A stretch of DNA of 64,000 nt from an uncultured Bacteroidota bacterium (lineage in GTDB: Bacteria > Bacteroidota > Ignavibacteria > UBA10030 > UBA8401): positions 6,400 to 70,399 of the forward strand of contig CALETH010000131.1 in assembly GCA_937920105.1 (NCBI GenBank). Reading direction: 5' to 3'. Positions 16,404 to 35,822 of the stretch are shown here, piece after piece. The notes beneath the pieces are model-generated. The model did not search any database. It was not told the origin of the DNA and saw nothing but the letters and a program-made list of their open reading frames with translations. The stretch's first letter is position 1. The number at the start of each line of letters is the position of its first letter. The translations under genes were made by a program, and so were the position numbers.

Positions 16404-16781
16404 ATGCTTACCGATTTTGGTAGAATACTTATTTTTTTTATTGTAGGAATAATTTTCACGGCTGGTGGACTTATTACTTCGTGGTTGTTACGACCTAAAC
16501 GTCCATATCCGGCAAAACTTTCTTCGTACGAATGCGGTGAAGAAGCAACCGGAGATTCTCGAATTCAATTCAATATTCGTTTTTATATTATTGCATTAAT
16601 TTTTGTAGTGTTTGAAGTAGAAGTGGTACTGTTATTTCCGTGGGCATTAGTGTTTAAAGAGTTTGGAATGTTTGCTTTTATTGAAATGCTTATTTTTCTT
16701 TTCATTCTCATAGTTGGTTATATGTACGTGTGGAAGAAAAAAGATTTGGAATGGGATGTACCGCAACCCAAAAATTGGTAA
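16404..16781 (+). CDS. nuoA: NADH-quinone oxidoreductase subunit A
   Basis: 125 aa, 3 TM, ND3/NuoA signature (SYECGEE...FDIRFY). Confidence 0.93.
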   Translation: MLTDFGRILIFFIVGIIFTAGGLITSWLLRPKRPYPAKLSSYECGEEATGDSRIQFNIRFYIIALIFVVFEVEVVLLFPWALVFKEFGMFAFIEMLIFLFILIVGYMYVWKKKDLEWDVPQPKNW

Positions 16782-16824
16782 CAAATTAATTCATTTATCT
16801 TAATAAACAATTAAAGAGACACAA

Positions 16825-18849
16825 ATGAAAAACAAATTTTTCATATATTATATAATTGCATTATTAATAATGCCAATAACCAGTCCCGCTCAATGGGCAA
16901 AAAATATAGGTGGTAATGCTAGTGATAGAGGTAGTAGTATTGCTAATGATGGTAATGGAAATGTGTATATAACAGGGTCTTTTCGTGGGACAGCAGATTT
17001 TGATACAGGTCCAGGAACGACAAACTTGATTGGGAAAGGTTGGACTGACATATATTTTGCAAAATACGATGTTTCCGGTTTATTATTGTGGGCAAAAAGT
17101 GTTGGGAGTACTAATTCTGATGGAGGTAATAGTATTGCTGTCGATGGTAGTGGAGATGTGTATGTAACAGGTTCCTTTGAAGGAATGGCAGATTTTGACC
17201 CTGGAGTAGGAACAACAAATTTGCCTTGGGTTGGTGGTGACGATATCTTTTTTGCAAAATACAAATCTAGTGACGGTTCGCTTATTTGGGCAAAAAGTAT
17301 TGGTGCTGCTAATGGTGCTTCCGAGGGTGGTAATAGTATTGCCATAGATGGAAGTGGAAATGTCTACATAACAGGTATATTTTATGGAACAGTAGATTTT
17401 GACCCAGGGCCAGGAACAACAAATTTAACAAGTGCTGGATATGATATATTTTTTGCGAAATATAGTGGGAATGATGGTTCACTTATATGGGCAAAAAGTG
17501 TTGGTGGTACTACTGATAATGATAAAGGTAATAGTGTTGCTATAGATGGTAGTGGAAATGTCTATATAACAGGACATTTTTTTGGCACAGTAGATTTTGA
17601 CCCAGGTTCAGGAACTGCAAATTTAACGAGTGTTGGTAATTATGATATCTTTTTCGCGAAATATAGTGGTAATGACGGTTCGCTTATATGGGCAAAAAGT
17701 ATTGGTGGTGCTAGTATTGATTATTGTAGCGATATTGTTGTAGATGGTAGTGCAAATGTATATTTAACTGGATATTTTGATTATACAGCAGATTTTGACC
17801 CCAGTGCTGGAGTCGCAAATTTGACAAGTGTTGGTTATGACATTTTTTTTGCCAAATATAACTCTACGGGTTCGCTTTTATGGGTAAAAGGTATAGGGGG
17901 TGGTGGTACTGATGGTAGCGCTAGTATAGATATAGATGGAAGTGGAAATGTGTATGTAACAGGTTCTTTTCAAGGAGCGGTAGATTTTGACCCTGGAGTA
18001 GGAACGACAAGTTTAACTAGTGTTGGTGGTTCCGATATCTTTTTTGCGAAATATAATTCTACTGGTTCATTTGTGTGGGAAAAAAAAATTGGAAGTGGCG
18101 GTGACGATTTTGGTACTAGTCTTGCCTTAGATGGCAGTGGAAATGCCTATACAACAGGATATTTTAATGGAACAGCCGATTTTGACCCATCAACCAATGC
18201 AGCCGATACATTAAAATTAACCAGCAGTGATGATGATATCTTTTTTGCAAAATATAGAACTATTGATGGTCTTCTTCCCGTAGAACTTACCTCATTTACA
18301 GCAACATCAAAAAATAGTGCTGTAGAGTTATCATGGAGTACAGTGAGTGAAATAAATAATTTTGGATTTGAAATTGAGAAAGCAGAAATCCATAATCAAT
18401 CATCAGAAAAACAGTGGAAAAAAATTAGTTTTGTACAGGGAAACGGAACAAGCAATATCCAACACCATTACACATTTATTGATAAAAATGTTACTACAGG
18501 AAAATTTATATATCGATTAAAACAAATTGATATGGATGGAAAGTTTACGTACAGCGAAGAAATAGAAGGAAATGCAGAAATTCCAAAAGAGATAACATTA
18601 TCCCAAAATTATCCAAACCCCTTTAATCCTGTAACAACAATTAATTATGAAATCCCACAAACCGGAAAAGTGTATTTAAAAGTGTACAATGTGTTAGGAG
18701 AAGAAGTCGCAACACTGGTGAATGGAATGCAGGAAGCGGGAAGATATTCTACACAATTTGACGCATCGAAATATTCTTCTGGAATATATTTTTATAAACT
18801 CACATCGAATAATTATATATTAGTAAAATCAATGGTATTGGTGAAATAA
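16825..18849 (+). CDS. Secreted SBBP-repeat beta-propeller protein with T9SS C-terminal sorting domain
   Basis: Signal peptide; about 10 repeats of GNSIAxDGSGNVYxTGxFxGTxDFDPGxGTTNLTSxGxxDIFFAKY (SBBP-like); C-terminal Por_Secre_tail-like domain (NYPNPFNP...GIYFYKL). Confidence 0.8.
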   Translation: MKNKFFIYYIIALLIMPITSPAQWAKNIGGNASDRGSSIANDGNGNVYITGSFRGTADFDTGPGTTNLIGKGWTDIYFAKYDVSGLLLWAKSVGSTNSDGGNSIAVDGSGDVYVTGSFEGMADFDPGVGTTNLPWVGGDDIFFAKYKSSDGSLIWAKSIGAANGASEGGNSIAIDGSGNVYITGIFYGTVDFDPGPGTTNLTSAGYDIFFAKYSGNDGSLIWAKSVGGTTDNDKGNSVAIDGSGNVYITGHFFGTVDFDPGSGTANLTSVGNYDIFFAKYSGNDGSLIWAKSIGGASIDYCSDIVVDGSANVYLTGYFDYTADFDPSAGVANLTSVGYDIFFAKYNSTGSLLWVKGIGGGGTDGSASIDIDGSGNVYVTGSFQGAVDFDPGVGTTSLTSVGGSDIFFAKYNSTGSFVWEKKIGSGGDDFGTSLALDGSGNAYTTGYFNGTADFDPSTNAADTLKLTSSDDDIFFAKYRTIDGLLPVELTSFTATSKNSAVELSWSTVSEINNFGFEIEKAEIHNQSSEKQWKKISFVQGNGTSNIQHHYTFIDKNVTTGKFIYRLKQIDMDGKFTYSEEIEGNAEIPKEITLSQNYPNPFNPVTTINYEIPQTGKVYLKVYNVLGEEVATLVNGMQEAGRYSTQFDASKYSSGIYFYKLTSNNYILVKSMVLVK

Positions 18850-18873
18850 ATTCATAAACCCTGCCATAGTTAG

Positions 18874-18905
18874 AGACCTGTCAAGTTTAAAAACTTGACA
18901 AGTCT
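18874..18905. repeat. Palindromic repeat AGAC-stem-TTTAAAA-stem-GTCT (variant A)
   Basis: agacctgtcaagtttaaaaacttgacaagtct, preceded by aaccctgccatag (half of the 6918 hairpin). Confidence 0.8.
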
Positions 18906-18916
18906 AATAAAAAATC

Positions 18917-19411
18917 ATGGGACTTCTTGATAAACAAATTAACAGCAGCAATATCGTCATCACATCGTTAGATAATTTGATGAATTGGGCAAGACTTTCT
19001 TCTCTTTGGCAAATGCAATTTGGATTAGCATGTTGTGCAATAGAAATGATGGGAGCAGCAGCATCAAATTATGATATTATGCGTTTCGGAGTTATTCCGC
19101 GAGCAACCCCACGTCAATGTGATGTGATGATTGTTTCCGGAACGGTAACCTTAAAAATGGCATCACGTGTGAAACGTTTGTATGACCAAATGTCTGAACC
19201 ACGTTATGTTATTTCTATGGGAAGTTGTTCTAATTGCGGAGGTCCATATTGGGAACACGGTTATCATGTGTTGAAAGGAGTGGATAGAGTAATTCCTGTA
19301 GATGTGTACGTTCCCGGATGTCCGCCAAGACCAGAAGCATTGTTGGAAGGTGTCATTAAATTACAAGAAAAAATTCGCAGTGAAGGTGTTGGAAAGAAGA
19401 AAGTAGCGTAA
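18917..19411 (+). CDS. nuoB: NADH-quinone oxidoreductase subunit B
   Basis: 164 aa, Fe-S cluster N2 cysteines ([20 protein letters not shown]). Confidence 0.95.
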
Positions 19412-19442: not shown

Positions 19443-19649
19443 ATGAAATTTACTATCACAATCAATCGTGATGAAGATGGGATGTATATTGCAGAATGTC
19501 CATCTATTCCAGGTTGCTTTAGTCAAGGAAAAACCGAAGAAGAAGCACAAAAAAATATTCAAGAGGCAATCAAAGAATGTTTAGATGTGCGAGCAGAAAA
19601 AGGAATGCCCTTAACTATTTCCACTCGCCAAGTTGAGGTTGCTATTTAA
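19443..19649 (+). CDS. hicB: HicB-family antitoxin (short, UPF0150-like)
   Basis: 68 aa, DGMYIAECPSIPGCFSQGKTEEEAQKNIQEAI matches the HicB N-terminal fold; TAATG junction with hicA. Confidence 0.7.
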   Translation: MKFTITINRDEDGMYIAECPSIPGCFSQGKTEEEAQKNIQEAIKECLDVRAEKGMPLTISTRQVEVAI

Positions 19650-19879
19650 TGCCCCAAGTGCCACTTCTTCGTCCAAAAGATATTATTAAAGTTTTTGAAA
19701 AACTTGGCTGGGAAGTTGTACGTCAACGAGGAAGTCATATCATTCTTACCAAAGAAGGGAGTATTTCAACATTGTCAGTTCCTAATCATTCTGAAGTTGC
19801 TCGTGGTACATTAAGAGGTCTTATTCAAAAAGCAGGAATAACAATAGAACACTTTATCGAAGTTTTACAAACGTTATGA
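19649..19879 (+). CDS. hicA: HicA-family mRNA interferase toxin
   Basis: 76 aa, ...VRQRGSHIILTKEG... matches the HicA motif; its stop overlaps the nuoC start (ATGA). Confidence 0.75.
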   Translation: MPQVPLLRPKDIIKVFEKLGWEVVRQRGSHIILTKEGSISTLSVPNHSEVARGTLRGLIQKAGITIEHFIEVLQTL

Positions 19880-20361: not shown

Positions 20362-20628
20362 ATGAAATATCTCCTATGGTTTTTTGTCGCTATTAATGCA
20401 GCAATCGGAATTAAATACCTTTTGAGTTCTTTTGGTGTATTCAAAATGCGATATTATCCATTTATTACAGAATTTATTTTTGCTGTTGTACTGCTTGGTA
20501 CGGCTGCGGTGGCATTATATATTTATCATTATAAAGAAATCATGTGGTTATCATTTCTTATTGTTTGTTCACCACTTATGCTTTTGTGTATAGTAGTATT
20601 TTTTTCAATGGTAACAGGTAAATATTAA
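20362..20628 (+). CDS. Small hypothetical membrane protein (3 TM)
   Basis: 88 aa hydrophobic ORF wedged between nuoC and nuoD. Confidence 0.45.
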   Translation: MKYLLWFFVAINAAIGIKYLLSSFGVFKMRYYPFITEFIFAVVLLGTAAVALYIYHYKEIMWLSFLIVCSPLMLLCIVVFFSMVTGKY

Positions 20629-20674
20629 CTTATAAACTATATTTTTATCAACTAATTATACAGGGAGTTATAAT

Positions 20675-21196
20675 ATGAAAAGCATGTTCTTCGTCATCGC
20701 AATTATTTTTTTCACACTTCCAATCTATGCACAAGTACAAGTAGAGGAAGGTCAGGAAGATGAATGCTATCAAGAAATTATTCAAGATATGAACAAAGAA
20801 ATAGCAGAAGCACCAACGAACGCAGAGTTGTATATCACACGTGGCAATGCGAAATATTATTTAGATGATTTTCGTGGAGCAATGTCTGACTACAAACAAG
20901 CATTAGAAAATAATGAAAGTTCTGCAGAAGCATATTGCCGGCTTGGAATGGTGAAGTTGCAATTTCTCAATCAATTTGAAGAATCGCTTGCAGATTTTGA
21001 AAAATCCATTGAGTTAAATGAAAAATATGCTCTTGCGTATTATGGTAGAGGTTTAGCAAAAATTGCCAAACAAGAAGATGATAAAGAAGGCGGTTGTGCA
21101 GATTTAAGCAAAGCCGGAGAATTAGGAGAAATCAAAGCATATCAAGCATTAAAAAATTTGTGTAAAAGTTCTAAAGATGTAGCAAAAGAAGAATAA
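20675..21196 (+). CDS. Secreted TPR-repeat protein
   Basis: Signal peptide MKSMFFVIAIIFFTLPIYAQ, then TPR-like helical repeats. Confidence 0.6.
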   Translation: MKSMFFVIAIIFFTLPIYAQVQVEEGQEDECYQEIIQDMNKEIAEAPTNAELYITRGNAKYYLDDFRGAMSDYKQALENNESSAEAYCRLGMVKLQFLNQFEESLADFEKSIELNEKYALAYYGRGLAKIAKQEDDKEGGCADLSKAGELGEIKAYQALKNLCKSSKDVAKEE

Positions 21197-21211: not shown

Positions 21212-22366
21212 ATGTCTAAAGGAGCGCATCTACATAACATTGCAACAAAAAATCTTCGTACCGAGGAAATGGTTCTCAATATGGGACCGCAACATCCATC
21301 AACGCATGGGGTGCTGCGGCTTGAACTTCTTGTTGATGGAGAAATTGTTGTTGATGTCATTCCCCACATAGGTTACCTTCATCGCTGTTTTGAAAAACAC
21401 GCCGAACAAATGCTCAACTATCAACAAATCATTCCGTATGTTGATAGGATGGATTATGTTGCTTCCATGACGAATGAGTTTGCATTTGTTACCGCCGCAG
21501 AAAAACTTTTCAATATTCAAGTTCCCGAACGAGTAGAATACATTCGCGTAATTATGGCGGAGTTGCAACGCATCGCCAGTCATCTTATTGCTGTTGGAAC
21601 CTACGGAATTGATATTGGAGCGTTCACACCATTTTTATATTGTTTCCGTGACCGCGAAAAAATTTTAGATTTATTTGAGATGACCTCCGGTGCACGGCTT
21701 CTTTACAATTATATGTGCATTGGCGGATTGTATCATGATTTGCCAAATGGATTTATTGAAAAAGCAAAAGAATTTTGTCAATACTTTAGAAAACAATTAA
21801 AAGATTTTAATGATTTATTGACATACAATGAAATTTTTATAAACCGAACAGCAAATGTGGGAATCCTTCCTGTAGATGTTGGTATTAATTATGCATGCAG
21901 TGGTCCAATGTTGCGGGGTTCCGGTGTAGATTGGGATTTGCGCCGTGATGACCCATATTCAATTTATCATAAATTGGAATGGGAAGTTTGTGTTGCAAAA
22001 GGGGAAGTGGGAAAGATTGGTGATTGTTGGAATAGACATTTTGTGCGTGTGCGAGAAATGGAGCAAAGCATTCTTATAATAGAGCAAGCGTTGGCACAAC
22101 TTCCGGAAGGAGATGTGAAATCCGCAATTCCTAAAAGAATACGACCGTTGCCTGCAGAAATTTACGTACGCACAGAAGCACCACGTGGAGAATTGGGATT
22201 TTATATTGTGAGTGATAATTCTACATCACCGTACCGTGTGAAAGCACGTTCATCTGCATTTGTGAACTTGAGTGTGATTGCAGAAATTGCTCGTGGTGCA
22301 ATGCTTGCCGATATGGTTGCCATTATCGGAAGTATTGATATTGTGTTGGGTGAAGTGGATAGATGA
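21212..22366 (+). CDS. nuoD: NADH-quinone oxidoreductase subunit D
   Basis: 384 aa, 49 kDa subunit ([16 protein letters not shown]). Confidence 0.96.
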
Positions 22367-22439: not shown

Positions 22440-22691
22440 ATGATAACAGCAAAAGAAGCCACACAAGCAGCAATAAAATATTTCCAAGAAGTTTTTAATG
22501 GCCGTTATGATAATTTAGCAGTAGAAGAAATCGAATTATCTTCTGATGAAAAATTTTGGTCTATTACACTTGGTTATAATATGATGTCAACAATGACAAT
22601 GCTTGTACCTACATCGCAACGAACATATAAAGAATTTAAAGTTTCTGCTGAAAGTGGTAAAGTTACTGCGATGAAAATCCATAATGTTTAA
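22440..22691 (+). CDS. Small hypothetical protein, possibly PepSY-like
   Basis: 83 aa; weak resemblance to the PepSY fold pattern (LAVEEIEL...FKVSAESGKVTAMKI). Confidence 0.35.
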   Translation: MITAKEATQAAIKYFQEVFNGRYDNLAVEEIELSSDEKFWSITLGYNMMSTMTMLVPTSQRTYKEFKVSAESGKVTAMKIHNV

Positions 22692-22696
22692 TATAT

Positions 22697-23207
22697 ATGG
22701 CGGATTATTATATTGAATTGTTAAAAAAATATTATTCTAAAGGTATACTTATAGATACAAATTTACTTTTGATATTTATTATTGGAATGTGTGATAAAAA
22801 TTATATCGCAACATTTAAGCGAACAAAGACATTTTCGTCTGAAGATTATGATATTCTTTTTCATATACTTCAACCATTTTGTAAAATCATAACAACACCA
22901 AATATTCTTACAGAAGTTAGTAATCATCTCGGATTTTTAGAGGAGTCTTTGAAACAGAAAGTTTTGAAAACTTATTTCTAATAATATTAATTCTTATTTT
23001 GCGGAAAGTTATCATAAAAGCAATTTTCTTTCTTCAAAAGATTTTTTTCATAAATTTGGACTTACGGATTCCAGCATTATTGAAGAAGCAAAAAATAAGT
23101 ATTTAGTTCTTACGGAAGATTTAAAATTAACCAATTATCTCCAATACCAAAAAATAGATGTCATGAATTTTCATCATTTGCAAACAATAAATTGGTATTC
23201 AACATAA
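22697..23207 (+). pseudogene. PIN-domain (VapC-like) nuclease gene disrupted by a +1 frameshift near 22968-22981
   Basis: Track ORF 22697..22981 encodes the PIN N-terminal motif (GILIDTNLLL). The C-terminal half (…FAESYHKSNFLSSKDFFHKFGLTDSSIIEEAKNKYLVLTEDLKLTNY…, stop about 23207) continues in a different frame with no start codon. Confidence 0.65.
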
Positions 23208-24373: not shown

Positions 24374-24380
24374 GATTTGT

Positions 24381-24405
24381 AGGGACGGTTGCAAAACCGT
24401 CCTTG
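24381..24405. repeat. Hairpin with GGTTGCAAAACC core
   Basis: agggacggttgcaaaaccgtccttg; sister copy agaatggttgcaaaaccattcca at 2664-2686. Both lie just 3' of plus-strand stop codons. Confidence 0.6.
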
Positions 24406-27865: not shown

Positions 27866-29896
27866 ATGCAAAAAACACTTTTACAATTATCTTTTATTGT
27901 TTTTATTCTTCCTCTGTGCAGTTTTCTTTTTCTTATTTTTTTCGGAAAAAAACTGCGAGCGGAAATATTCGCAACTTCTGTTATTGCAGTAACATTTCTT
28001 TTAAGCATATTTATTGCAACTATAAAATTTTTATCTTTTCCTCAAGAAACATTTCATTATTCTTTTTCTTGGATAAATTTTCCCATCAAGATAGAAACCG
28101 GAATTTTACTCGATAATCCCGCAGCAATAATGCTTGTTATCGTAACATTCATCAGTTTTCTTGTACATCTTTTTTCTATAGAATATATGAAAGGAGATGT
28201 ACGTTACTCACGATATTTTTCTTATCTTGGATTTTTTACCACATCAATGCTCGGAATAATTCTCACCGATAATCTTTTTACGATGTACATGTTTTGGGAA
28301 TTGGTTGGTATTAGTTCCTATCTTCTCATCGGACATTGGTACGAAAAAACTTCTGCTGCCAACGCATCAAAAAAAGCATTTATCGTCAATCGCATTGGTG
28401 ATGTAGGAATGTTCATTGGAATTATGTTGTTGTGGAATAATTTTCACACACTCACATTTGAAGGAATTTTTTCTTCACTCAATACTATAGAAAACACATC
28501 ACTACTAACTGTTGCTGGACTTTTACTTTTTTGCGGAGCAATTGGAAAATCTGCACAATTTCCATTACAAGTGTGGTTGCCGGATGCTATGGAAGGACCA
28601 ACTCCCGTGAGTGCATTAATTCATGCAGCAACAATGGTGGCTGCAGGTGTGTATCTGGTGCTTCGCATTTTTCCGTTACTTACCATCGAAGCGTTAACCG
28701 TGATTGCGTACATCGGAGCAGTTACAGCATTTATTGCAGCAACAATTGCAGTTGTTCAAACAGACATCAAAAAAATATTGGCGTACTCTACAATAAGTCA
28801 GTTGGGATATATGATGCTTGGTTTGGGTTCACTTGGATATACAGCGGGATTTTTTCATTTAGTTACACATGCAATTTTTAAGGCGGGACTTTTTCTCGGA
28901 GCCGGTTCGGTAATTTATGCAATGCACAATTCAATACAGGCATTACATCACACAAAAAATCATGATGTTGATGCACAAAATATTTTTTTTATGGGTGGAT
29001 TGAAAAAGAAAATGCCAATTACATTTTGGACTTTTCTTATGTGCACTTTTGCACTCACGGGAATTCCATTGACTTCCGGATTTTTAAGTAAAGATGAAAT
29101 TCTTACATCAGCACTTGTCTTTGGAAACCACACCAATAATTTTCTTCTTCCGTTGTTGGCTTTCAGTACGGTGATGTTAACATCATTTTATATGTTTCGT
29201 CTTATCATTGTTGCATTTTTAGGAAATCATATTGATGAAAAAAGAATAGAACACATTCACGAATCTCCCAAAGTGATGCTCGTACCATTGATTGTATTGG
29301 CAGTGTTATCATTTTTTGTTTTCTATTCGTTCAATCCATTTTCTGTATCAAACAGTTGGTTTACAAAAATTATTACTTTACCACGTTCACTTATTTCAAC
29401 CTATCTTCCTGAACACAGAAAATTTGCAGTAACACCACATCAACAAATACACACTCTTGCAATGGTTGTTTCGTTTGGGGCAACATTATTAGGAATATTA
29501 TTTGCATTTCTTTTGTATTATTGGAAAAAGATTTCTCCACAAAAGATTGCACAAAAATCTCGTTTATTATATTCATTTTTTTCTCAACAATGGTACTTTG
29601 ATAGATTCTATAATATATTTGTGGTGAAAGGAACACTTGCATTTTCTAAAATTTTTTCTTGGTTTGATGTAAAAGTTATTGATGGATGTGTGAATGGAAC
29701 AGCAGTACTATTTCAAAAAATTTCTTTTGTGAGTGGAAAATTTGATTCCATTATTGTTGATGGAATCGTTAATTTTATTGCGTATTTTTCCGGCATGTTG
29801 GGATTAGGGTTACGAAAAATCCAAACAGGAAAAGTGCAAACTTACATTGCATTAGTAATCGTTGGAATTTTAATTTTATTTTTTGTGTATAAATGA
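27866..29896 (+). CDS. nuoL: NADH-quinone oxidoreductase subunit L
   Basis: 676 aa antiporter-like subunit (WLPDAMEGPTPVSALIHAATMV). Confidence 0.96.
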   Translation: MQKTLLQLSFIVFILPLCSFLFLIFFGKKLRAEIFATSVIAVTFLLSIFIATIKFLSFPQETFHYSFSWINFPIKIETGILLDNPAAIMLVIVTFISFLVHLFSIEYMKGDVRYSRYFSYLGFFTTSMLGIILTDNLFTMYMFWELVGISSYLLIGHWYEKTSAANASKKAFIVNRIGDVGMFIGIMLLWNNFHTLTFEGIFSSLNTIENTSLLTVAGLLLFCGAIGKSAQFPLQVWLPDAMEGPTPVSALIHAATMVAAGVYLVLRIFPLLTIEALTVIAYIGAVTAFIAATIAVVQTDIKKILAYSTISQLGYMMLGLGSLGYTAGFFHLVTHAIFKAGLFLGAGSVIYAMHNSIQALHHTKNHDVDAQNIFFMGGLKKKMPITFWTFLMCTFALTGIPLTSGFLSKDEILTSALVFGNHTNNFLLPLLAFSTVMLTSFYMFRLIIVAFLGNHIDEKRIEHIHESPKVMLVPLIVLAVLSFFVFYSFNPFSVSNSWFTKIITLPRSLISTYLPEHRKFAVTPHQQIHTLAMVVSFGATLLGILFAFLLYYWKKISPQKIAQKSRLLYSFFSQQWYFDRFYNIFVVKGTLAFSKIFSWFDVKVIDGCVNGTAVLFQKISFVSGKFDSIIVDGIVNFIAYFSGMLGLGLRKIQTGKVQTYIALVIVGILILFFVYK

Positions 29897-29952: not shown

Positions 29953-30627
29953 ATGCCATGGATGGAATTCATTAGAGAAGATTCTTACGTAAGTAAGGAT
30001 AGCCCAAATATAGCAATAACCAGCGACCGCAAATTCATGTTTAATTCTCAGTTTGTCAGATTAGCTGGCTTGAATATCAAACAACGGGTGGTAGTTCATA
30101 TTCATCCAGAGACGTATAGAATTGGATTTGAATTTGTTACAGATGATAATCAAAATTCTTTCCAATTAGGTTATCAATCTCGTGGTAGTAAATCAGGAGG
30201 ACTTAATTGTACAGCTGGAGCAGTAATTAATAGATTTGCTTGGATAAAGGCAATTTCAGAATTAAAATCTCCCCAAGCAAAACGTTTTTCTCCAAAACAA
30301 GATAGAGAAATGGGGAAATTGGTATGGGCAATACAACTTTGTCCGGCTTTTGAAATTAGCGAGTCTAGAGAAGCAAATAATATTCCAAGTGGAGCAAAAG
30401 GAATATATCGGTATAAACGTCATAGTGGAGAAATAGTTTATATAGGTAAAGGAGATATAAAGAGTAGATTAAATGAACCTCAAAGACGAGAATGGAAGTT
30501 TGATACAATTGAGTATTCAATTGTAGAAGATGTAGATGCAAGAACAAAATGGGAAGAATTTTGGATTGTTCGTTTTCAAGAAGAAAATAAACAACAACTT
30601 CCAATGTATAATAAAATTTCTGCTTAA
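29953..30627 (+). CDS. Swapped-hairpin (AbrB/MazE-like) N-terminal domain fused to a GIY-YIG nuclease domain
   Basis: 224 aa; the N-terminal IAITSDRKFMFNSQFVRLAGLNIKQRVVVHIHPETYRIGFEFV resembles AbrB/SpoVT-type DNA-binding barrels; the C-terminal GIYRYKRHSGEIVYIGKG...R...E is a GIY-YIG core. RBS aaggaa. Confidence 0.6.
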   Translation: MPWMEFIREDSYVSKDSPNIAITSDRKFMFNSQFVRLAGLNIKQRVVVHIHPETYRIGFEFVTDDNQNSFQLGYQSRGSKSGGLNCTAGAVINRFAWIKAISELKSPQAKRFSPKQDREMGKLVWAIQLCPAFEISESREANNIPSGAKGIYRYKRHSGEIVYIGKGDIKSRLNEPQRREWKFDTIEYSIVEDVDARTKWEEFWIVRFQEENKQQLPMYNKISA

Positions 30628-30663: not shown

Positions 30664-32244
30664 ATGCAATTCACATTTCTCAATATAGGAATACTCACAT
30701 GGCTAACATTCTTACCATTGGTAGGAATGCTGTGTATCTTTTTTCTTCCACAAAAAAAATCACAACTAGCAAAATGGATAACATTAGGTTGCACAACAAT
30801 CCAATTGTTATTAGCAACAATCATTTATATAAAATTTGATAGAACATTAGCAGGAGTAAATTCTATCGAAGGAATGCAATTCAAAGAAATTTTTCCATGG
30901 ATTTCTATTAACAGTACAGAATGGTTCGGGAAAATTTCCATTCAATATTTTTTAGGAATTGATGGACTCAGTGTTCCGATGATTTTATTAACAGCAATTA
31001 TTTCTTTCATTGCCGTTCTTGCATCATGGAAAATAGAAAAATCCGTGAAAGGATATTTTTCATTATTTCTTTTATTAAACACCGGAATGTTTGGCGTTTT
31101 TGTTGCGTTAGATTTTTTCTTGTTCTTTATTTTTTGGGAATTAATGTTGTTACCAATGTATTTTCTTATTGGAGTGTGGGGTGGAGAGCGAAGAGAATAT
31201 GCAGCAGTAAAATTTTTCCTCTACACATTATTTGGTTCAGTGCTGATTTTATTAGTGATGTTGGCATTATACTTTAGTGTTACTGTTACTGATGCAATAA
31301 CTGGAGAAAAAATGCACACCTTCAATATGCTCGCAATGATGAATCCACAAAATTTTGAAAACAATTCACTCTTATTCGGACTTCACACTTATTGGAGATA
31401 CATTGCATTTATTGCACTCTTTATTGGATTTGCAATTAAATTACCGTTGTTTCCATTTCACACATGGCTGCCTGATGCACACGTGGAAGCACCAACAGCA
31501 ATCAGCGTTATTCTTGCCGGCATACTTTTAAAAATGGGTGGATATGGTTTAGTGAGAATTGCATTACCAATTTTTCCGGATGCAGCAATACACTATGTAT
31601 ATCCTATTGCCTTTTTGGGATTTATTAATATTGTGTATGGTGCATTGTGTGCAATGGCACAAAAAGATTTTAAAAAACTCATTGCCTATTCATCCGTCAG
31701 CCACATGGGAATTGTAGTGTTGGGAATTGCAGCGTTAAATACGCAAGGAATGGTTGGAGCAATGTTGCAAATGTTCAATCACGGAACAATTACCGCAATG
31801 CTCTTTGTTATTGTCGGCGTATTGTATGATAGAACACACACACGTCAGATAAGTGAGTTTGGCGGGTTGATGAATAAAATGCCAAAATATTCTGCATTAG
31901 TAGTCATTGCATTTTTTGCATCACTTGGTTTGCCGGGATTAAGCGGATTTATTTCTGAGGCCTTTTCATTTCTCGGTGCATTTCAAACTCATCAATGGTT
32001 AACTATTGCTTCCACATCTGGAATAGTATTAACCGCCGCTTATATGTTGTGGACTTTTCAACGTGTGTATTTAGGAACACTTCCGGAAAAATGGAATTCA
32101 CTACAAGATATTTCCAAACGAGAGTTATTGATGTTAGTTCCGCTAGCAATCATTATAATATTTTTAGGAATTTATCCAACACCAATGTTAGAATTAATGA
32201 ATACTTCTGTGAACGCTCTTGTTGAAATGGTAAAAGTGAAATAA
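30664..32244 (+). CDS. nuoM: NADH-quinone oxidoreductase subunit M
   Basis: 526 aa antiporter-like subunit (FPFHTWLPDAHVEAPTAISVILAGILLKMGGYG). Confidence 0.96.
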   Translation: MQFTFLNIGILTWLTFLPLVGMLCIFFLPQKKSQLAKWITLGCTTIQLLLATIIYIKFDRTLAGVNSIEGMQFKEIFPWISINSTEWFGKISIQYFLGIDGLSVPMILLTAIISFIAVLASWKIEKSVKGYFSLFLLLNTGMFGVFVALDFFLFFIFWELMLLPMYFLIGVWGGERREYAAVKFFLYTLFGSVLILLVMLALYFSVTVTDAITGEKMHTFNMLAMMNPQNFENNSLLFGLHTYWRYIAFIALFIGFAIKLPLFPFHTWLPDAHVEAPTAISVILAGILLKMGGYGLVRIALPIFPDAAIHYVYPIAFLGFINIVYGALCAMAQKDFKKLIAYSSVSHMGIVVLGIAALNTQGMVGAMLQMFNHGTITAMLFVIVGVLYDRTHTRQISEFGGLMNKMPKYSALVVIAFFASLGLPGLSGFISEAFSFLGAFQTHQWLTIASTSGIVLTAAYMLWTFQRVYLGTLPEKWNSLQDISKRELLMLVPLAIIIIFLGIYPTPMLELMNTSVNALVEMVKVK

Positions 32245-32684
32245 TGAAGATATCAGAAAACATCATCCCACTGTCCTTAGAAGAAGTAATAATTTTACAA
32301 AAAAAACGGACGAAAATTATTATTGCTTTATCTAAAATAGAAATTTTTTCTTTGGGAGTATTATTTTTCTTTTTTCGAAATAATCTTAATGAAATAGTAT
32401 TTTTTGTCCTTTTAGGTTGTGTTACAGTTTTGTTGATAGTGATTAGTTTTATAGCAGTAAAACAAATAAATAAAGATTTATATAAAGATATAAAAAAAAT
32501 AATTATAGGTACTATTGATAATAAACTTATTGAGTTTTATAAATCTCCATCGTATTACCTTTTTATCGGTAACGAAAAAATTTTTGTTGATAAAAAAACA
32601 TATCAACAATATGAAATTGGTGCTAAGATAGAGATTCATATCACTTTTTACAGTCAACACGTATTTATTATTAAGTATCTTTAA
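32244..32684 (+). CDS. Small 2-TM membrane protein, paralogue 1 (possibly bPH_2/DUF304-like)
   Basis: Starts MKISENIIPLSLEE; two TM helices then about a 75-aa soluble domain ending KIEIHITFYSQHVFIIKYL; TAATG-coupled to nuoM. Confidence 0.5.
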   Translation: MKISENIIPLSLEEVIILQKKRTKIIIALSKIEIFSLGVLFFFFRNNLNEIVFFVLLGCVTVLLIVISFIAVKQINKDLYKDIKKIIIGTIDNKLIEFYKSPSYYLFIGNEKIFVDKKTYQQYEIGAKIEIHITFYSQHVFIIKYL

Positions 32685-33139
32685 TGAAAATCTCAGAAAA
32701 TATCGTTCCACTTTCTCCGGAAGAAATTGAAACTTTACAAAAAGACAAAAGAAATACTCTTATAGCAGTTCCAATAGTAGGAATAGTTTTTGTAATAGTT
32801 TTATATTTCATTTTTGATGAAAACATTTTGTGGTTTTATACAGTGAGTGGGAGTATCCTTTTATTATTTTCTTTTTTCATGTGGAAAACAACTCAAAAAA
32901 TTCGTAAAGATATTCAAGAAGGAATGAAAAGGGTAATTGTTGGTACGATTGATAATAAATCTGCTCAAAAATCAGCAACCACTAATAATAAATCCAGCAC
33001 CAATACTAATTACTATTTGTGGCTCGGTGAAGAAAAATTTTCCATCAATTCAGATACTTATTATAAATGTGAAAAAGAACAAAAAGTAGAAATTCATATA
33101 ACACCACACTCTCAACATATATATAAAATTATTGTATGA
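32684..33139 (+). CDS. Small 2-TM membrane protein, paralogue 2
   Basis: Starts MKISENIVPLSPEE; same architecture as the upstream gene with a low-complexity insertion (KSATTNNKSSTNTNYY); ends KVEIHITPHSQHIYKIIV. Confidence 0.5.
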   Translation: MKISENIVPLSPEEIETLQKDKRNTLIAVPIVGIVFVIVLYFIFDENILWFYTVSGSILLLFSFFMWKTTQKIRKDIQEGMKRVIVGTIDNKSAQKSATTNNKSSTNTNYYLWLGEEKFSINSDTYYKCEKEQKVEIHITPHSQHIYKIIV

Positions 33140-34242
33140 ATATTGTAATGCTATTGTTTTGTATTATCGCTGGATTTTTTATTTTTTTTGGATGTTCTAA
33201 AGCCATGAAAAAATCTTCATCATTTCCTTCTATAGAACAAGAAACATTAGAAGAACGAGAAAAGGGCTTTCAACAATATCCCAACGCATTATATCCAATA
33301 GAAAAAAATGGAAAATGGGGATATATGAATCGTGCAACAAAAATTATTATTCAACCACAATATGAAAACGTGGAAGATTTTTTTGAAGGAAGAGCAAAAA
33401 TCCAAAAAAATGGAAAGTATGGGTATATTGATAGTACTGGAAAAGAAATTATTTTAGCACAATTTGAAAAGGCAGAAAATTTTTTTGAAGGATTTGCAAA
33501 AATAAAAAAAAATGAGAAATACGGCTTTATTGATAAAACAGGAAAAGAAATTATCTCACCACAATTTGAAGATGCGGGAAATTTTTCTGAGGGCTTTGCT
33601 GCTGTAAAAATAAATGGTAAAACCGGATTTATAAATAGAGAAGGAAAAATAATTATCCAACCGCAATTTTTACGTGCAGTGTATGTTTCGCAATTTTCTG
33701 AAGGACTTGCTTCAGTCTATACCTCGGAAGAAGAAGGTGGTGGATATATTGATAAAAAAGGTGAGTGGATTATTCAACCAAATTTTATTGAAGTTGGTCC
33801 TTTTCGTAATGGACTTGCCAGAGTTGCTGTTCAAGAAGATAAAATACTGACTGGCTTTCTTGATAAAGGTGGTCTATTTGTTATCGCACCATCATTTACT
33901 TTTGCATGGGATTTTTCTGAAAATTTTGTAACGGGTTGGACATTAAGCGAAGACCGAACGAAAAAAATCTGGAAATGTATGGATACACAAGGCAATATTG
34001 TTCTTGATAATTTACCATATCGAACAGTTGGTGCATGTGTGGGAGGATTTATTCCTATACAAAATTCTGAAATGAAGTGGGGATTTATGGATATCACTGG
34101 AAAAGAAATTATTCCACCGCAATTTTCAGGAATAAATCATTTTAAAAATGGACTTGCGAGAATGGAAATAGGAGATTTCTCTCGTGGACATACGTCTATT
34201 GTTTATATTAATCCAACAGGCAAAATAGTTTGGCAACCGTAA
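33136..34242 (+). CDS. WG-repeat (KWG-like) lipoprotein
   Basis: Lipoprotein signal ...FFGCSK; at least 7 repeats of G[KY][WY]G[FY]I[DN]xTGKEIIxPQFExxxxFxEGxA. Confidence 0.7.
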   Translation: MNIVMLLFCIIAGFFIFFGCSKAMKKSSSFPSIEQETLEEREKGFQQYPNALYPIEKNGKWGYMNRATKIIIQPQYENVEDFFEGRAKIQKNGKYGYIDSTGKEIILAQFEKAENFFEGFAKIKKNEKYGFIDKTGKEIISPQFEDAGNFSEGFAAVKINGKTGFINREGKIIIQPQFLRAVYVSQFSEGLASVYTSEEEGGGYIDKKGEWIIQPNFIEVGPFRNGLARVAVQEDKILTGFLDKGGLFVIAPSFTFAWDFSENFVTGWTLSEDRTKKIWKCMDTQGNIVLDNLPYRTVGACVGGFIPIQNSEMKWGFMDITGKEIIPPQFSGINHFKNGLARMEIGDFSRGHTSIVYINPTGKIVWQP

Positions 34243-34269
34243 TATGATTAAGTTATTCAAAAAAACAAT

Positions 34270-34350
34270 GTCATTCCCACATGTTTTTAGTGGGAATCCA
34301 TTTTTTAAATTTTCGTAAAAATATGGATTCCCGCTTTCGCGGGAATGACC
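34270..34350. repeat. Two REP-like palindromes (gtcattcccac-N-gtgggaatcc; ggattcccgctttcgcgggaatgacc)
   Basis: The first is near-identical to 13016-13044; the second is the GAAA-loop type also seen at 50529. Their translation gives the spurious MFLVGIHFLNFRKNMDSRFRGNDLKKF extension of the nuoN ORF in the track. Confidence 0.75.
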
Positions 34351-34373
34351 TTAAAAAATTTTGTATTCGCTTT

Positions 34374-35822
34374 ATGATTGAACACATCCTTTCTTCGCTA
34401 CACTATATTTATCCAGAGATTACACTTCTTGGGACAATTCTTACTATTATAATAGCAGATGTTTTTTTATCATCACATAAAAAAATATCTTTTGTTATAA
34501 TTGCTTTTATTGGAATTTTTCTTCTAGCAACATTTCTTATTCAACAACAATTTTCTCTTAATGCAATTTTTGATGGAATGCTTACAATAGATTCCTTTGC
34601 ACGATTTTTTAAACTTTTAATTATTGCTGCTGGTGCATTCACAATTCTTTTCTCACTCAATTCATCAGAGCTTACTACAATCCATCAACGCCTCGGTGAA
34701 TATTATGCAATTCTTTTCACCGCAATGCTGGGAATGTTTTTAATGGTCAGTGCAACACATCTGCTCACATTATATTTAGCAATAGAACTTACCAGTATTA
34801 GTTTCTACATTTTGGTTGGCATTATAAAAGAAAGACAATCTTCATCCGAAGCATCGCTGAAATATATTTTATATGGAGCATTTTCTTCCGGAGTAATGTT
34901 GTACGGACTTTCACTTTTTTATGGAATGTTTGGTTCGTTAGAATTTAGTGCTATACAAATTGCTCTTATAGAAGGAAGCACAAATCCATTATTACTATTG
35001 TTTGCAACATTGTGTTTGCTTGTCGGACTTGGATATAAAATTTCCATTGTTCCGTTTCATTTTTGGACTCCTGATGTGTACGAAGGTGCACCAATTACTA
35101 TTACAGCATTTCTTTCCGTTGCATCAAAAATTTCCGGATTTGCTTTGCTGATGCGAATAGTAATGATGTTTTCCGAAGTGAAAGAAATTCCTCTACAACA
35201 AATTCTCATTATCATTTCTATTCTAACAATGACGATTGGAAACCTTGTGGCCTTATGGCAAAATAATATTAAAAGATTTCTTGCATACTCTAGTATTGCC
35301 CACGCCGGATATTTATTATTAGGGTGTGTAACGATGGGAAAAGAAGGATTGATGGCAATGATGTTGTACAGCGGAATATATCTTTTTATGAACCTTGGAA
35401 CATTTTATGTTGCAATGTTTGTTGCTGATATAAAACAAAGTGAACATCTTGATGCTTACAAAGGATTAGGAAAATCATTTCCATTTCTTTCTATTGCAAT
35501 GGTAATATTTTTAATTTCGCTAACGGGGTTGCCGCCTACTGCAGGATTTATAGGTAAACTGTATTTATTTTCTTCTTTAATGAATGCAAAACTTGTATGG
35601 TTAGCATTGATAGCAGTTATTAATAGTATTATATCATTATACTATTATATAAGAATTATCCGGAACATGTTTTTGCGTGATGAGGAATTACCAATCATAA
35701 CACATAATATTTTTTTATTTCCTCAAAAAATTCTTCTTTTACTTTTACTTCTTCCCACAATTATTTTTGGAATGTATTTTTCTCCATTGATGGAATTGGT
35801 GCGAAGTTCCATACTGAAATAG
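34374..35822 (+). CDS. nuoN: NADH-quinone oxidoreductase subunit N
   Basis: Start chosen at MIEHILSSLHYIYPE (ATG 34374), downstream of the repeat; ND2/NuoN antiporter-like subunit. Confidence 0.9.
   Translation: MIEHILSSLHYIYPEITLLGTILTIIIADVFLSSHKKISFVIIAFIGIFLLATFLIQQQFSLNAIFDGMLTIDSFARFFKLLIIAAGAFTILFSLNSSELTTIHQRLGEYYAILFTAMLGMFLMVSATHLLTLYLAIELTSISFYILVGIIKERQSSSEASLKYILYGAFSSGVMLYGLSLFYGMFGSLEFSAIQIALIEGSTNPLLLLFATLCLLVGLGYKISIVPFHFWTPDVYEGAPITITAFLSVASKISGFALLMRIVMMFSEVKEIPLQQILIIISILTMTIGNLVALWQNNIKRFLAYSSIAHAGYLLLGCVTMGKEGLMAMMLYSGIYLFMNLGTFYVAMFVADIKQSEHLDAYKGLGKSFPFLSIAMVIFLISLTGLPPTAGFIGKLYLFSSLMNAKLVWLALIAVINSIISLYYYIRIIRNMFLRDEELPIITHNIFLFPQKILLLLLLLPTIIFGMYFSPLMELVRSSILK

What the first reader, a model, noticed from the sequence alone, without database searches (positions are those of the whole stretch)
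16404..35822. Complex I (nuo) operon broken up by accessory cargo at almost every gene junction
Eleven nuo genes (A,B,C,D,H,I,J,K,L,M,N) occur in canonical order on one strand. Unrelated genes sit at most junctions. A–B: a 674-aa SBBP/T9SS secreted protein. B–C: hicB-hicA. C–D: a 3-TM peptide and a TPR protein. D–H: a PepSY-like peptide, a frameshifted PIN gene, a TMEM43-like membrane protein and a ParE-type TA pair. L–M: an AbrB-like/GIY-YIG nuclease fusion. M–N: two paralogous 2-TM proteins and a WG-repeat lipoprotein. Only the tightly overlapping H-I-J-K-L and the J/K pair are intact. Most cargo is co-directional and often translationally coupled (TAATG/ATGA overlaps), so it is probably co-transcribed with the respiratory complex. 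A highly expressed essential operon acting as an insertion hotspot for addiction modules and secreted proteins is unusual. It suggests either selfish-element exploitation of a strong promoter or stress-linked control of complex I.
Basis: partly seen in the sequence, partly recalled or inferred. Interest (0 to 1): 0.75.

Follow-up and report, generated by a model that had tools for sequence, protein, structure and literature searches.

The report
Complex I operon stuffed with accessory genes
An intact 11-gene respiratory complex I operon in an uncultured Ignavibacteria-like bacterium carries 14 unrelated genes (toxin-antitoxin pairs, a nuclease, secreted and membrane proteins) wedged between its genes, but this genome does the same to other housekeeping operons, so it is a genome-wide habit rather than a property of complex I.

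Summary
nuoA,B,C,D,H,I,J,K,L,M,N lie in canonical order on the + strand. All are full length. Fourteen unrelated co-directional genes occupy 6 of the 10 junctions, and the operon is stretched from about 10.6 kb to 19.4 kb.

In 160 related loci only 3.7% of 1205 nuo junctions hold more than 250 nt. None of the window's cargo sits at a nuo junction there, so the inserts are lineage-specific.

The "nuo hotspot" reading is only partly supported.
- The window shows the same insertions in hrcA-grpE, birA-coaX and probably hpt-ftsH.
- Toxin-antitoxin density is no higher inside nuo than outside.
- Among related genomes, nuo operons gain or lose genes about 7 times less often per aligned kb than their flanks.

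One other lineage (L115) has 7 of 10 junctions filled with similar cargo classes. Its close relative L118 differs from it by clean, junction-exact indels, so such insertion is real and ongoing.

Two terminator-like hairpins inside the operon make single-transcript expression uncertain.

A GIY-YIG fusion and a frameshifted PIN gene were both verified. This is an extreme case of a known phenomenon, of moderate interest.

The parts
16404..16781 (+). nuoA
   Evidence: PF00507, 128.7 bits. Aligns end to end with relatives.
16825..18849 (+). Cargo 1: secreted SBBP beta-propeller protein with a T9SS C-terminal sorting domain (A-B junction)
   Evidence: PF06739, 6 repeats, and PF18962. Internal repeats of about 195-200 nt. 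No relative has any insert at A-B (0 of 109).
18874..18905 (.). Palindromic hairpin, variant of repeat A, at the 3' end of cargo 1
   Evidence: Sequence. Folds at -15.6 kcal/mol, z -6.4.
18917..19411 (+). nuoB
   Evidence: PF01058. Up to 90% identical to relatives.
19443..19879 (+). Cargo 2-3: hicB (19443-19649) and hicA (19649-19879), a type II TA pair. The hicA stop overlaps the nuoC start (ATGA).
   Evidence: PF15919 and PF07927 above cutoff. Overlaps. Reproduced in independent contig L171.
19876..20352 (+). nuoC
   Evidence: PF00329.
20362..21196 (+). Cargo 4-5: 88-aa 3-TM protein (20362-20628) and TPR protein with a signal peptide (20675-21196)
   Evidence: No family hit for the 88-aa protein. 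Three hydrophobic segments. TPR families.
21212..22366 (+). nuoD
   Evidence: PF00346, 314.8 bits.
22440..23207 (+). Cargo 6-7: two-gene PIN-like module. The 83-aa partner lies at 22440-22691. The PIN-like gene is split by a +1 frameshift near 22971-22981 (22697-22981 plus 22971-23207), so it is a pseudogene.
   Evidence: Frames. 829 full-length homologues of about 166 aa. A conserved upstream partner of 84-86 aa in L169 and L170, 36-43% identical.
23243..24373 (+). Cargo 8: TMEM43-family membrane protein
   Evidence: PF07787, E 4.8e-82.
24380..24415 (+). Terminator-like hairpin plus T-run just after the TMEM43 gene
   Evidence: Best + strand site in the scan. -20.8 kcal/mol, z -5.9.
24413..24526 (+). 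Decayed second copy of the ParE-type TA cassette: antitoxin 3' end joined to toxin 3' end
   Evidence: 24413-24507 is 90.6% identical to 24746-24841. 24509-24526 is 94% identical to 25110-25127.
24535..24567 (.). Palindromic repeat A copy
   Evidence: 0 expected by chance. Fold.
24614..25134 (+). Cargo 9-10: antitoxin (24614-24841) and ParE/RelE-family toxin (24841-25134)
   Evidence: PF09720 and PF05016 above cutoff. 1-nt overlap. Present in independent contig L081.
25172..26218 (+). nuoH
   Evidence: PF00146, 368 bits.
26224..26256 (.). Palindromic repeat A copy in the nuoH-nuoI spacer
26278..27722 (+). nuoI (26278-26814), nuoJ (ORF from 26842, conserved part from about 26908, to 27420), nuoK (27417-27722)
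   Evidence: The N-terminal extension of NuoJ is not conserved.
27866..29896 (+). nuoL, preceded by a 143-nt non-coding spacer (median in relatives 17 nt)
29953..30627 (+). Cargo 11: AbrB-like N-terminal domain fused to a GIY-YIG nuclease domain (L-M junction)
30664..32244 (+). nuoM
   Evidence: PF00361 and PF01059.
32244..34242 (+). Cargo 12-14: two paralogous 2-TM proteins (32244-32684, 32684-33139) and a WG-repeat lipoprotein (33136-34242). All overlap head to tail, starting at the nuoM stop.
   Evidence: Paralogy. PF14903, 236.7 bits. Overlaps. Hydrophobic segments.
34270..34346 (.). Repeat B element forming two convergent terminator-like hairpins between the WG-repeat gene and nuoN
   Evidence: The 34255-34350 stretch folds at -36.6 kcal/mol, z -7.7.
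34374..35822 (+). nuoN. The ORF opens at 34281, but its first 31 codons read through repeat B and are not conserved.
   Evidence: PF00361. Median first aligned query residue is 28.5.

Best explanation
This is a functional-looking 11-subunit (NuoEFG-less) complex I operon in a low-GC, toxin-antitoxin-rich, Ignavibacteria-like genome.

**What happened (shown).** The lineage has accumulated small accessory genes in the short spacers between co-directional housekeeping genes throughout the genome. With ten junctions in a row, the nuo operon shows this most conspicuously. Fourteen lineage-specific genes fill six junctions.

**How the cargo arrived (inferred).** It arrived by junction-exact insertion, most likely illegitimate recombination or recombination mediated by flanking homology. 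No transposon or integron signature was found.

**Why only this kind of insert survives (inferred).** An essential operon tolerates only inserts that are co-oriented and compact, many of them overlapping the neighbouring start or stop. Once in place, an insert persists for three reasons:
- it gets free transcription;
- TA pairs are addictive;
- an imprecise deletion would damage an essential neighbour.

**Turnover continues (shown).** One PIN-like toxin is frameshifted. One ParE cassette is present as an intact copy plus a decayed copy.

**Transcription (inferred).** It is probably broken into at least three units by cargo-borne terminator-like hairpins after the TMEM43 gene and before nuoN. 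Downstream nuo genes would then depend on read-through or on promoters supplied by the inserts.
For: - **Gene identities and order:**
- **nuo genes intact:** full-length alignments, with NuoB up to 90% and NuoD up to 82% identical to relatives.
- **Lineage-specific:** none of the window's cargo sits at a nuo junction in 160 related loci, and only 3.7% of 1205 junctions there exceed 250 nt.
- **Genome-wide pattern:**
  - birA-coaX is adjacent in 34 relatives. Here it holds a 72-aa ORF, ParE and CopG.
  - hrcA-grpE-dnaJ is contiguous in 4 of 4 relatives. Here a 161-aa ORF plus repeat B separate hrcA from grpE.
  - Further TA-like genes are a RES-domain protein, Fic and Phd+PIN.
- **No TA enrichment in nuo:** P = 0.36.
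- **nuo is colder than its flanks among relatives:** 3.4 against 23 gene-scale indels per 100 kb aligned.
- **Junction-exact insertion seen directly:** L115 against L118.
- **Orientation filter:** 14 of 14 cargo genes here and 36 of 39 insert ORFs of at least 80 aa in relatives are co-directional.
- **Decay and turnover:**
- **Cargo composition differs:**
- **Terminator-like hairpins:**
- **Not an assembly artefact:** two other contigs reproduce the A-B to C-D and D-H to L-M junctions.
Against: - No genome closer than about 75% NuoH identity was found. The timing, order and mechanism of the window's own insertions are therefore inferred by analogy with L115/L118.
- Only 64 kb of this genome was seen, so 'genome-wide' rests on a handful of junctions. 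Two of these (birA-coaX and hrcA-grpE) were checked against relatives.
- The lower GC3 of the cargo could reflect low expression rather than foreign origin.
- Some small membrane or TPR cargo could have been co-opted for complex I assembly.
- Promoters could not be predicted. Neither the sigma-70 nor the Bacteroidetes-type consensus exceeded shuffles. The transcription-unit model is therefore speculative.
Confidence: 0.7

Rival explanations
1. The nuo operon is a specific insertion hotspot. Selfish elements target it, or are selectively retained there, because its strong constitutive promoter gives them expression.
For: - The load is extreme: 6 of 10 junctions here and 7 of 10 in the independent locus L115.
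- The same cargo classes recur in nuo operons of other lineages: HicAB, PIN, RelE/ParE, DUF2442/DUF4160, 23S_rRNA_IVP, PDDEXK_3 and T9SS-sorted propellers.
- L115 and L118 differ by 4 events in nuo and 0 in 4.5 kb of aligned flank.
- The cargo is co-oriented and has overlapping start and stop codons.
Against: - Other operons in the same window are interrupted in the same way.
- TA density is not higher inside nuo.
- Over 428 related pairs, nuo has about 7 times fewer gene-scale indels per aligned kb than its flanks.
- 134 of 161 loci have no insert at all.
Confidence: 0.15
2. Some or all inserts are functional additions to complex I or its regulation. The small TM proteins, the TPR protein and the TMEM43-like protein could be supernumerary subunits or assembly factors. 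The TA promoters could couple nuoH-N expression to stress.
For: - Several inserts are membrane or periplasmic proteins translationally coupled to nuo genes.
- L115 and L118 also carry small TM ORFs at C-D.
- A terminator-like site upstream of the ParE cassette would leave the TA promoter as the nearest driver of nuoH.
- Some inserts in relatives are retained across about 20% NuoH divergence.
Against: - None of the window's cargo sits at a nuo junction in any of 160 relatives.
- The cargo includes a pseudogene and a decayed cassette.
- The cargo classes are typical mobile or selfish genes. Homologues of the GIY-YIG protein sit beside integrases and restriction-modification genes.
- No family link to complex I was found.
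Confidence: 0.1
3. Assembly chimera or a degenerating spare copy: the interleaving is a metagenome mis-assembly, or this is a decaying second nuo operon.
For: The source is a metagenomic contig with low coverage, and the related ENA contigs are at about 3x. The first 301 nt of L081 disagree with the window.
Against: - Independent contigs reproduce SBBP-nuoB-hicBA-nuoC-88aa-TPR and parE-nuoH...nuoL-GIY-YIG-nuoM at 99.97% identity.
- Junctions are seamless, with overlapping codons.
- All 11 Nuo proteins are full length and conserved.
Confidence: 0.03

Closest known systems
nqo/nuo clusters of Paracoccus denitrificans and Rhodobacter capsulatus with interspersed unidentified reading frames (own knowledge: Xu, Matsuno-Yagi & Yagi 1993; Dupuis et al. 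1998; not found in the searchable library)
   Same: A complex I gene cluster in canonical order on one strand, with several co-directional unrelated ORFs between the structural genes.
   Different: - Those are 14-subunit clusters with 6-7 URFs, in Alphaproteobacteria.
- Here the operon has 11 subunits.
- The 14 inserts are recognisably TA modules, a nuclease, and T9SS-secreted, lipoprotein and membrane proteins.
- They are absent from all relatives sampled and show ongoing decay.
Chromosomal type II toxin-antitoxin modules as mobile, addictive genes that are very abundant in some free-living bacteria (own knowledge: Pandey & Gerdes 2005; Van Melderen & Saavedra De Bast 2009)
   Same: - HicBA, ParE/antitoxin and the PIN-like pair are compact two-gene overlapping modules.
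- They are patchily distributed.
- There are about 7 TA-like loci in 64 kb.
- Pseudogenised and duplicated copies are present.
   Different: They sit inside an essential respiratory operon, and one overlaps the start codon of nuoC. Toxicity and addiction were not tested.
Core-gene-flanked hotspots of horizontal gene transfer (own knowledge: Oliveira, Touchon & Rocha 2017)
   Same: Accessory genes are concentrated between conserved core genes. There is presence/absence and replacement polymorphism at the same spot in close relatives, as in L115 against L118.
   Different: Classical hotspots are few, large and lie between operons. Here many tiny inserts lie inside one operon, and nuo overall turns over less than its flanks.
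Free-standing GIY-YIG homing endonuclease genes between conserved genes of T4-like phages (seg/mob genes; own knowledge)
   Same: Cargo 11 is a GIY-YIG nuclease with an N-terminal DNA-binding-like domain. It is inserted alone between two highly conserved genes, nuoL and nuoM.
   Different: Two homologues examined lie in integrase and restriction-modification neighbourhoods, not at nuoL-M. No evidence of homing was obtained.
23S rRNA intervening-sequence proteins (PF05635) and PDDEXK_3/'GxxExxY' proteins
   Same: In relatives these small genes occupy nuo junctions H-I, K-L, D-H and L-M. They behave as interstitial passengers of highly expressed loci.
   Different: None is present in the window itself.

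Membership tests
11-subunit complex I operon (nuoABCDHIJKLMN, without nuoEFG) | All eleven subunit families present above curated cutoffs | tested here: met
   Pfam hits for Oxidored_q4, q6, Complex1_30kDa, 49kDa, NADHdh, Fer4, q3, q2 and three Proton_antipo_M.
11-subunit complex I operon (nuoABCDHIJKLMN, without nuoEFG) | Canonical order on one strand, with no nuoE/F/G between D and H | tested here: met
   Coordinates. The D-H interval holds only the PIN-like pair, TMEM43 and the ParE cassette.
11-subunit complex I operon (nuoABCDHIJKLMN, without nuoEFG) | Subunits intact (full length against orthologues) | tested here: met
   Median unaligned ends are 0-2 residues, except for the non-conserved ORF extensions of NuoJ, NuoN and NuoD and the NuoI C-terminal tail of about 24 residues.
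11-subunit complex I operon (nuoABCDHIJKLMN, without nuoEFG) | Transcribed as one unit | not testable with these tools
   Only consensus scans were possible. Two internal terminator-like hairpins argue against a single unit.
HicAB type II toxin-antitoxin | HicA toxin and HicB antitoxin domains in adjacent overlapping genes | tested here: met
   PF07927 at 70.6 bits and PF15919 at 41.5 bits. 1-nt overlap.
HicAB type II toxin-antitoxin | Toxin arrests growth and antitoxin neutralises it | not testable with these tools
   Needs expression experiments.
ParE/RelE-type toxin-antitoxin | ParE/RelE-fold toxin with an upstream small antitoxin | tested here: met
   PF05016 at 31.3 bits (cutoff 23) and PF09720 at 50.5 bits. 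1-nt overlap.
PIN-domain toxin module | Match to a PIN-domain profile | tested here: not met
   The reconstructed protein has no Pfam or NCBIfam PIN hit at E <= 1. Membership rests on 829 homologues that sources name 'PIN domain/FCF1'.
PIN-domain toxin module | Intact reading frame | tested here: not met
   A +1 frameshift near 22971-22981 splits the gene.
PIN-domain toxin module | Conserved small upstream partner gene | tested here: met
   84-86 aa partners lie 2-6 nt upstream in L169 and L170 and are 36-43% identical to the 83-aa ORF.
GIY-YIG nuclease superfamily | GIY and YIG motifs plus conserved Arg, Glu and Asn | tested here: met
   G150-I-Y152, Y163-I-G165, R172, E187 and N220 are invariant in 38 sequences.
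GIY-YIG nuclease superfamily | GIY-YIG fold | tested here: met
GIY-YIG nuclease superfamily | Match to a curated sequence profile | tested here: not met
   No Pfam hit. The only NCBIfam hit is a UvrC N-terminal match at E 0.096.
Free-standing homing endonuclease | Homologues occupy the same conserved intergenic site in other genomes, or show presence/absence at that site | tested here: not met
   Two homologues lie beside integrases, HNH and restriction-modification genes, not at nuoL-M. No relative has it at L-M.
Core-genome HGT hotspot | Higher gene turnover than surrounding regions | tested here: not met
   3.4 against 23 events per 100 kb aligned (nuo against flanks) over 428 related pairs. 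Met only locally in L115/L118, at 4 against 0.
Integron cassette array / transposon insertion | Integrase or transposase, attC-like or inverted-repeat ends, target-site duplications | tested here: not met
   No integrase or transposase domain among the called ORFs of the window that were scanned. No significant flanking direct repeats at any nuo junction. The only significant repeat stems from the duplicated ParE cassette. L115/L118 breakpoints show no duplications.

The most novel reading that the evidence does not exclude
Junctions of essential, highly conserved operons may act as long-lived safe harbours for selfish genes. In TA-rich lineages the genes could accumulate there until the operon's transcription is rewired by the cargo. 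In this window, terminator-like hairpins after the TMEM43 gene and before nuoN would leave the autoregulated ParE-cassette promoter as the driver of nuoH-M. Expression of the membrane arm of complex I would then be coupled to toxin-antitoxin state. Cargo 11 could additionally be a free-standing homing nuclease that targets the nuoL-nuoM junction.
Probability: 0.1. Interest if true: 0.7.

Novelty: new variant of a known kind. Interest (0 to 1): 0.45.

Why it matters
It shows how much foreign DNA an essential multi-subunit operon can absorb without losing any subunit. The operon nearly doubles in length and carries toxins, a nuclease and secreted proteins.

It also shows what filter the survivors pass. 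They are co-oriented and compact, and they are placed exactly between stop and start codons.

The window, together with the independent L115/L118 pair, gives a natural system for three questions:
- how selfish genes enter operons;
- how long they persist (some are shared across about 20% NuoH divergence);
- whether they perturb the stoichiometric expression of a respiratory complex.

There is a practical warning too. In such genomes 'operon membership' is a poor guide to function.

Tried and rejected
- **Target-site duplications or flanking direct repeats at each insert.** None was significant, apart from the repeat generated by the duplicated ParE cassette.
- **Integron or transposon origin.** No integrase, transposase or cassette-end consensus was found. 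The palindromic repeats A and B occur at only some boundaries, also occur away from cargo, and repeat A is absent from all relatives' loci.
- **Promoter prediction.** Sigma-70-like sites and terminator-like sites are not above shuffles. The Bacteroidetes-type TTTG/TAnnTTTG pattern is not above chance.
- **Rfam scan of 13-42 kb.** It found only the tRNA.
- **PADLOC defence models on 10 cargo or unknown proteins.** No hits.
- **Pfam and NCBIfam at relaxed thresholds on the unassigned cargo.** Only hints appeared: PepSY at E 0.024 and the UvrC N-terminus at E 0.096.
- **Closer relatives.** The genome and metagenome scans reached at most 75% NuoH identity. L081 and L171 are the same strain.
- **Literature.** Searches for TA modules or inserts in nuo operons found nothing relevant.
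- **Horizontal spread of inserts shared by relatives.** Rejected as unnecessary. Inserts shared at the same junction are less similar than the flanking Nuo proteins, as vertical inheritance predicts.

Full report
**1. What is there**

ORF listing and Pfam scans show eleven complex I genes on the + strand in the order nuoA, B, C, D, H, I, J, K, L, M, N between 16404 and 35822. Every subunit family scores far above its gathering cutoff. No nuoE, F or G is present, so this is the 11-subunit form. All eleven proteins align end to end with orthologues from related genomes. NuoB is up to 90% identical, NuoD up to 82% and NuoH up to 75%. The operon therefore looks functional and under purifying selection. 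The long ORFs for nuoN (from 34281) and nuoJ (from 26830/26842) have N-terminal extensions that relatives lack. The nuoN extension is a read-through of a repeated hairpin element, and the likely start is 34374.

**2. The cargo**

Fourteen + strand genes sit at six of the ten junctions.

| Junction | Cargo |
|---|---|
| A-B | A 674-aa SBBP beta-propeller protein with a T9SS sorting domain |
| B-C | hicB-hicA, with the hicA stop overlapping the nuoC start (ATGA) |
| C-D | An 88-aa protein with three hydrophobic segments, and a TPR protein with a signal peptide |
| D-H | An 83-aa ORF, a split PIN-like gene, a TMEM43-family protein (E 5e-82), and an Unstab_antitox/ParE pair |
| L-M | A 224-aa protein |
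| M-N | Two paralogous 2-TM proteins (37% identical, E 1e-31) and a WG-repeat lipoprotein, all overlapping head to tail from the nuoM stop |

- **The PIN-like gene.** Joining the two frames of 22697-23207 gives a 169-aa protein. It matches 829 full-length proteins of about 166 aa over 95-98% of its length at 45-53% identity. Several sources name these proteins PIN-domain or FCF1 proteins. Curated PIN profiles do not detect it.

The 83-aa "PepSY-like" ORF is better described as the conserved upstream partner of the PIN-like gene. Two unrelated genomes have an 84-86 aa homologue (36-43% identical) 2-6 nt upstream of the intact PIN-like gene.

**3.

- Directly upstream of the ParE cassette lies a decayed second copy. 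The antitoxin 3' end (24413-24507, 90.6% identical) is joined to the toxin 3' end (24509-24526).
- A 33-nt palindrome (repeat A) occurs at 24535-24567 and 26224-26256 (the nuoH-nuoI spacer). A variant lies at 18874-18905, and further copies lie elsewhere in the window. Chance expectation is 0.
- A second repeat (B) forms two convergent terminator-like hairpins between the WG-repeat gene and nuoN.
- The best terminator-like site on the + strand of the whole region follows the TMEM43 gene: 24380-24405, -20.8 kcal/mol, with a T-run.
- H-I (59 nt) and K-L (143 nt) are not tight. Only J/K overlap.

**4. Comparison with relatives**

A scan of one genome per species and a scan of metagenomes each returned 80 loci encoding NuoH (48-75% identical). 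The closest are labelled Bacteroidota or Ignavibacteria MAGs. Nothing closer than about 75% exists in these collections apart from two contigs of the same strain. Those two contigs independently reproduce the A-B to C-D and D-H to L-M junctions, which argues against a chimera.

Of 1205 nuo junctions in these loci, 44 (3.7%) exceed 250 nt. 134 of 161 loci have none. Six of ten in the window has a binomial P of about 4e-7. None of the window's cargo sits at a nuo junction in any relative. The "conserved vertically inherited operon members" refutation therefore fails, and the cargo is lineage-specific.

Cargo GC3 is 0.188, against 0.262 for the nuo genes and 0.233 for other housekeeping genes in the window (P = 1e-4 and P = 0.002).

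**5. The phenomenon recurs elsewhere**

Locus L115 (NuoH 62% identical to the window) has seven of ten junctions occupied. Its cargo includes:
- a retropepsin-like protein;
- HicB-HicA;
- DUF2442;
- two T9SS-sorted proteins, one a FG-GAP propeller;
- a 23S_rRNA_IVP four-helix protein;
- a PIN protein.

Other relatives carry single inserts of HicA/HicB, DUF4258/DUF2283, DUF2442/DUF4160 and PDDEXK_3. By sequence inspection only, some also carry MNT/HEPN-like and RelE-like pairs. 36 of 39 insert ORFs of at least 80 aa are co-directional.

L118 is a close relative of L115 (NuoH 93% and NuoD 97% identical, about 80-90% nucleotide identity). It is collinear with L115 except for clean indels placed exactly between a stop and the next start:
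- hicBA at C-D;
- 1.7 kb at D-H;
- different cargo at H-I;
- 3.1 kb at J-K.

None of these shows a target duplication.

Inserts shared at the same junction by related loci are less similar than the flanking Nuo proteins. This fits vertical retention over about 20% NuoH divergence.

**6. Is nuo special?**

Three lines of evidence say no.

First, the same window shows the same habit in other conserved gene strings.
- birA-coaX is adjacent in 34 relatives. Here it is separated by a 72-aa ORF, a ParE/RelE toxin and a CopG antitoxin.
- hrcA-grpE-dnaJ is contiguous in 4 of 4 relatives. Here a 161-aa ORF and repeat B separate hrcA from grpE.
- Two unassigned ORFs separate hpt from ftsH. Adjacency of these two genes in relatives was not tested.
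- A RES-domain gene lies between dnaK and clpB.
- Fic and Phd+PIN genes lie further on.

Second, TA-like loci number 3 in the 19.4-kb nuo span and 4 in the other 44.6 kb (P = 0.36).

Third, I compared 428 pairs of loci with 85-99.5% NuoH identity. These pairs are not independent of one another. Gene-scale indels number 93 in 2.73 Mb of aligned nuo DNA and 191 in 0.82 Mb of aligned flank. That is about seven times fewer per kb inside nuo. The operon is, if anything, refractory. The window and L115 are lineages with an unusually high general load.

**7. Mechanism**

*Shown:*
- The cargo is lineage-specific, co-oriented, compact and often overlapping its neighbours.
- It includes addictive-type modules and a nuclease.
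- It decays in place.
- In a sister lineage it is gained or lost exactly at stop/start boundaries.

*Inferred:*
- Insertion occurs by illegitimate recombination or recombination assisted by flanking homology, not by transposition or integron capture. There is no integrase or transposase among the scanned ORFs, and no duplications or common cassette ends.
- Survivorship is filtered by the need not to disrupt expression of essential downstream genes.
- Persistence is helped by free transcription, by TA addiction and by the lethality of imprecise deletions.

*Speculative:*
- The terminator-like hairpins split the operon into nuoA to TMEM43, ParE cassette to WG-repeat gene, and nuoN. Insert-borne promoters would then drive the distal genes. 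Promoters could not be predicted.

**8. What is known**

Literature searches found no description of TA or selfish-gene colonisation of nuo operons.

From my own knowledge, the Paracoccus nqo and Rhodobacter capsulatus nuo clusters contain six to seven unidentified reading frames between structural genes, so an interrupted complex I cluster has precedent. TA-rich chromosomes and core-flanked HGT hotspots are also established concepts.

What is unusual here:
- the degree of interruption, with the operon almost doubled in length;
- the nature of the cargo, including toxins overlapping nuo start codons and T9SS-secreted proteins;
- the independent recurrence in L115.

**9. Verdict**

This is a new, extreme variant of a known kind of arrangement, and it is of moderate interest.

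Noticed in passing
window 35880-35954 and 36002-37381: A tRNA with anticodon CAT lies between nuoN and tilS, the tRNA-Ile lysidine synthetase gene. It may be tRNA-Ile2, the TilS substrate, encoded next to its modifying enzyme.
   Followed up: no
window 7003-7035, 24535-24567, 26224-26256; variants 18874-18905, 4455-4494, 41967-42000: A 33-nt perfect-palindrome repeat family (AGATTTGTCAAGTTTTAAAAACTTGACAAATCT) lies in intergenic spacers without a T-run. It is not found in any of 160 relatives' loci, so it is a lineage-specific REP-like element.
   Followed up: partly
window 5690-5719 (-), 13016-13045, 34270-34299: A second repeat family has a GC-rich hairpin (GTCATTCCCGCATGTTTTTAGCGGGAATCC). 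Translated, it yields the spurious 'SRFRGND' N-terminus of the nuoN ORF. Two of its three copies lie next to inserted cargo.
   Followed up: partly
window 29953-30627: This gene represents an unannotated protein family of about 64 members. It combines an AbrB/MraZ-like domain with a GIY-YIG nuclease domain and has no Pfam, NCBIfam or PADLOC model. The few members that carry an organism name come from Phycisphaerae, Melioribacteraceae and Patescibacteria. Two homologues examined lie beside integrases, HNH and restriction-modification genes.
   Followed up: yes
L115 4503-20763 versus L118 5321-12232: This is a pair of close relatives (NuoH 93% identical). One has 7 of 10 nuo junctions filled. 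The two differ by four clean junction-exact indels or replacements, which makes them a natural before-and-after system for operon invasion.
   Followed up: yes
window 13058-15500 versus L001, L005 and others: birA-coaX lies upstream of nuo and co-directional with it in the window. In 34 relatives it lies downstream of nuoN on the opposite strand, which implies a rearrangement in this lineage.
   Followed up: partly
window 3277-12792 (- strand): The heat-shock cluster dnaK, RES-domain gene, clpB, hrcA, 161-aa ORF, grpE, dnaJ is also interrupted by unassigned or toxin-like genes. Downstream synteny with relatives (HHH, PilM_2, rsmD-like, coaD) is lost.
   Followed up: partly
window 51300-53649: A run of likely mobile or defence-type genes follows a SIS-domain (GmhA-like) gene. 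It comprises an LPD26-domain protein with an internal 276-nt duplication (51447-52013, 80% identical), a Fic/DOC protein and an unassigned 269-aa protein.
   Followed up: no
window 56709-57336: A further Phd/YefM-type antitoxin plus PIN (VapC-like) pair follows a pseudouridine synthase gene. This brings TA-like loci to about 7 in 64 kb.
   Followed up: no
L003 14667-15101, L007 7771-8145, L091 14748-15140; L115 15919-16293, L122 192-569, L124 4277-4675, L126 11080-11475, L140 1035-1433: PDDEXK_3 ('GxxExxY') and 23S_rRNA_IVP four-helix proteins are known from rRNA intervening sequences. In several lineages they recur as single-gene passengers at nuo junctions and appear to be inherited vertically there. 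Only L003, L115, L122 and L124 were checked against Pfam. The others were assigned by sequence similarity.
   Followed up: partly
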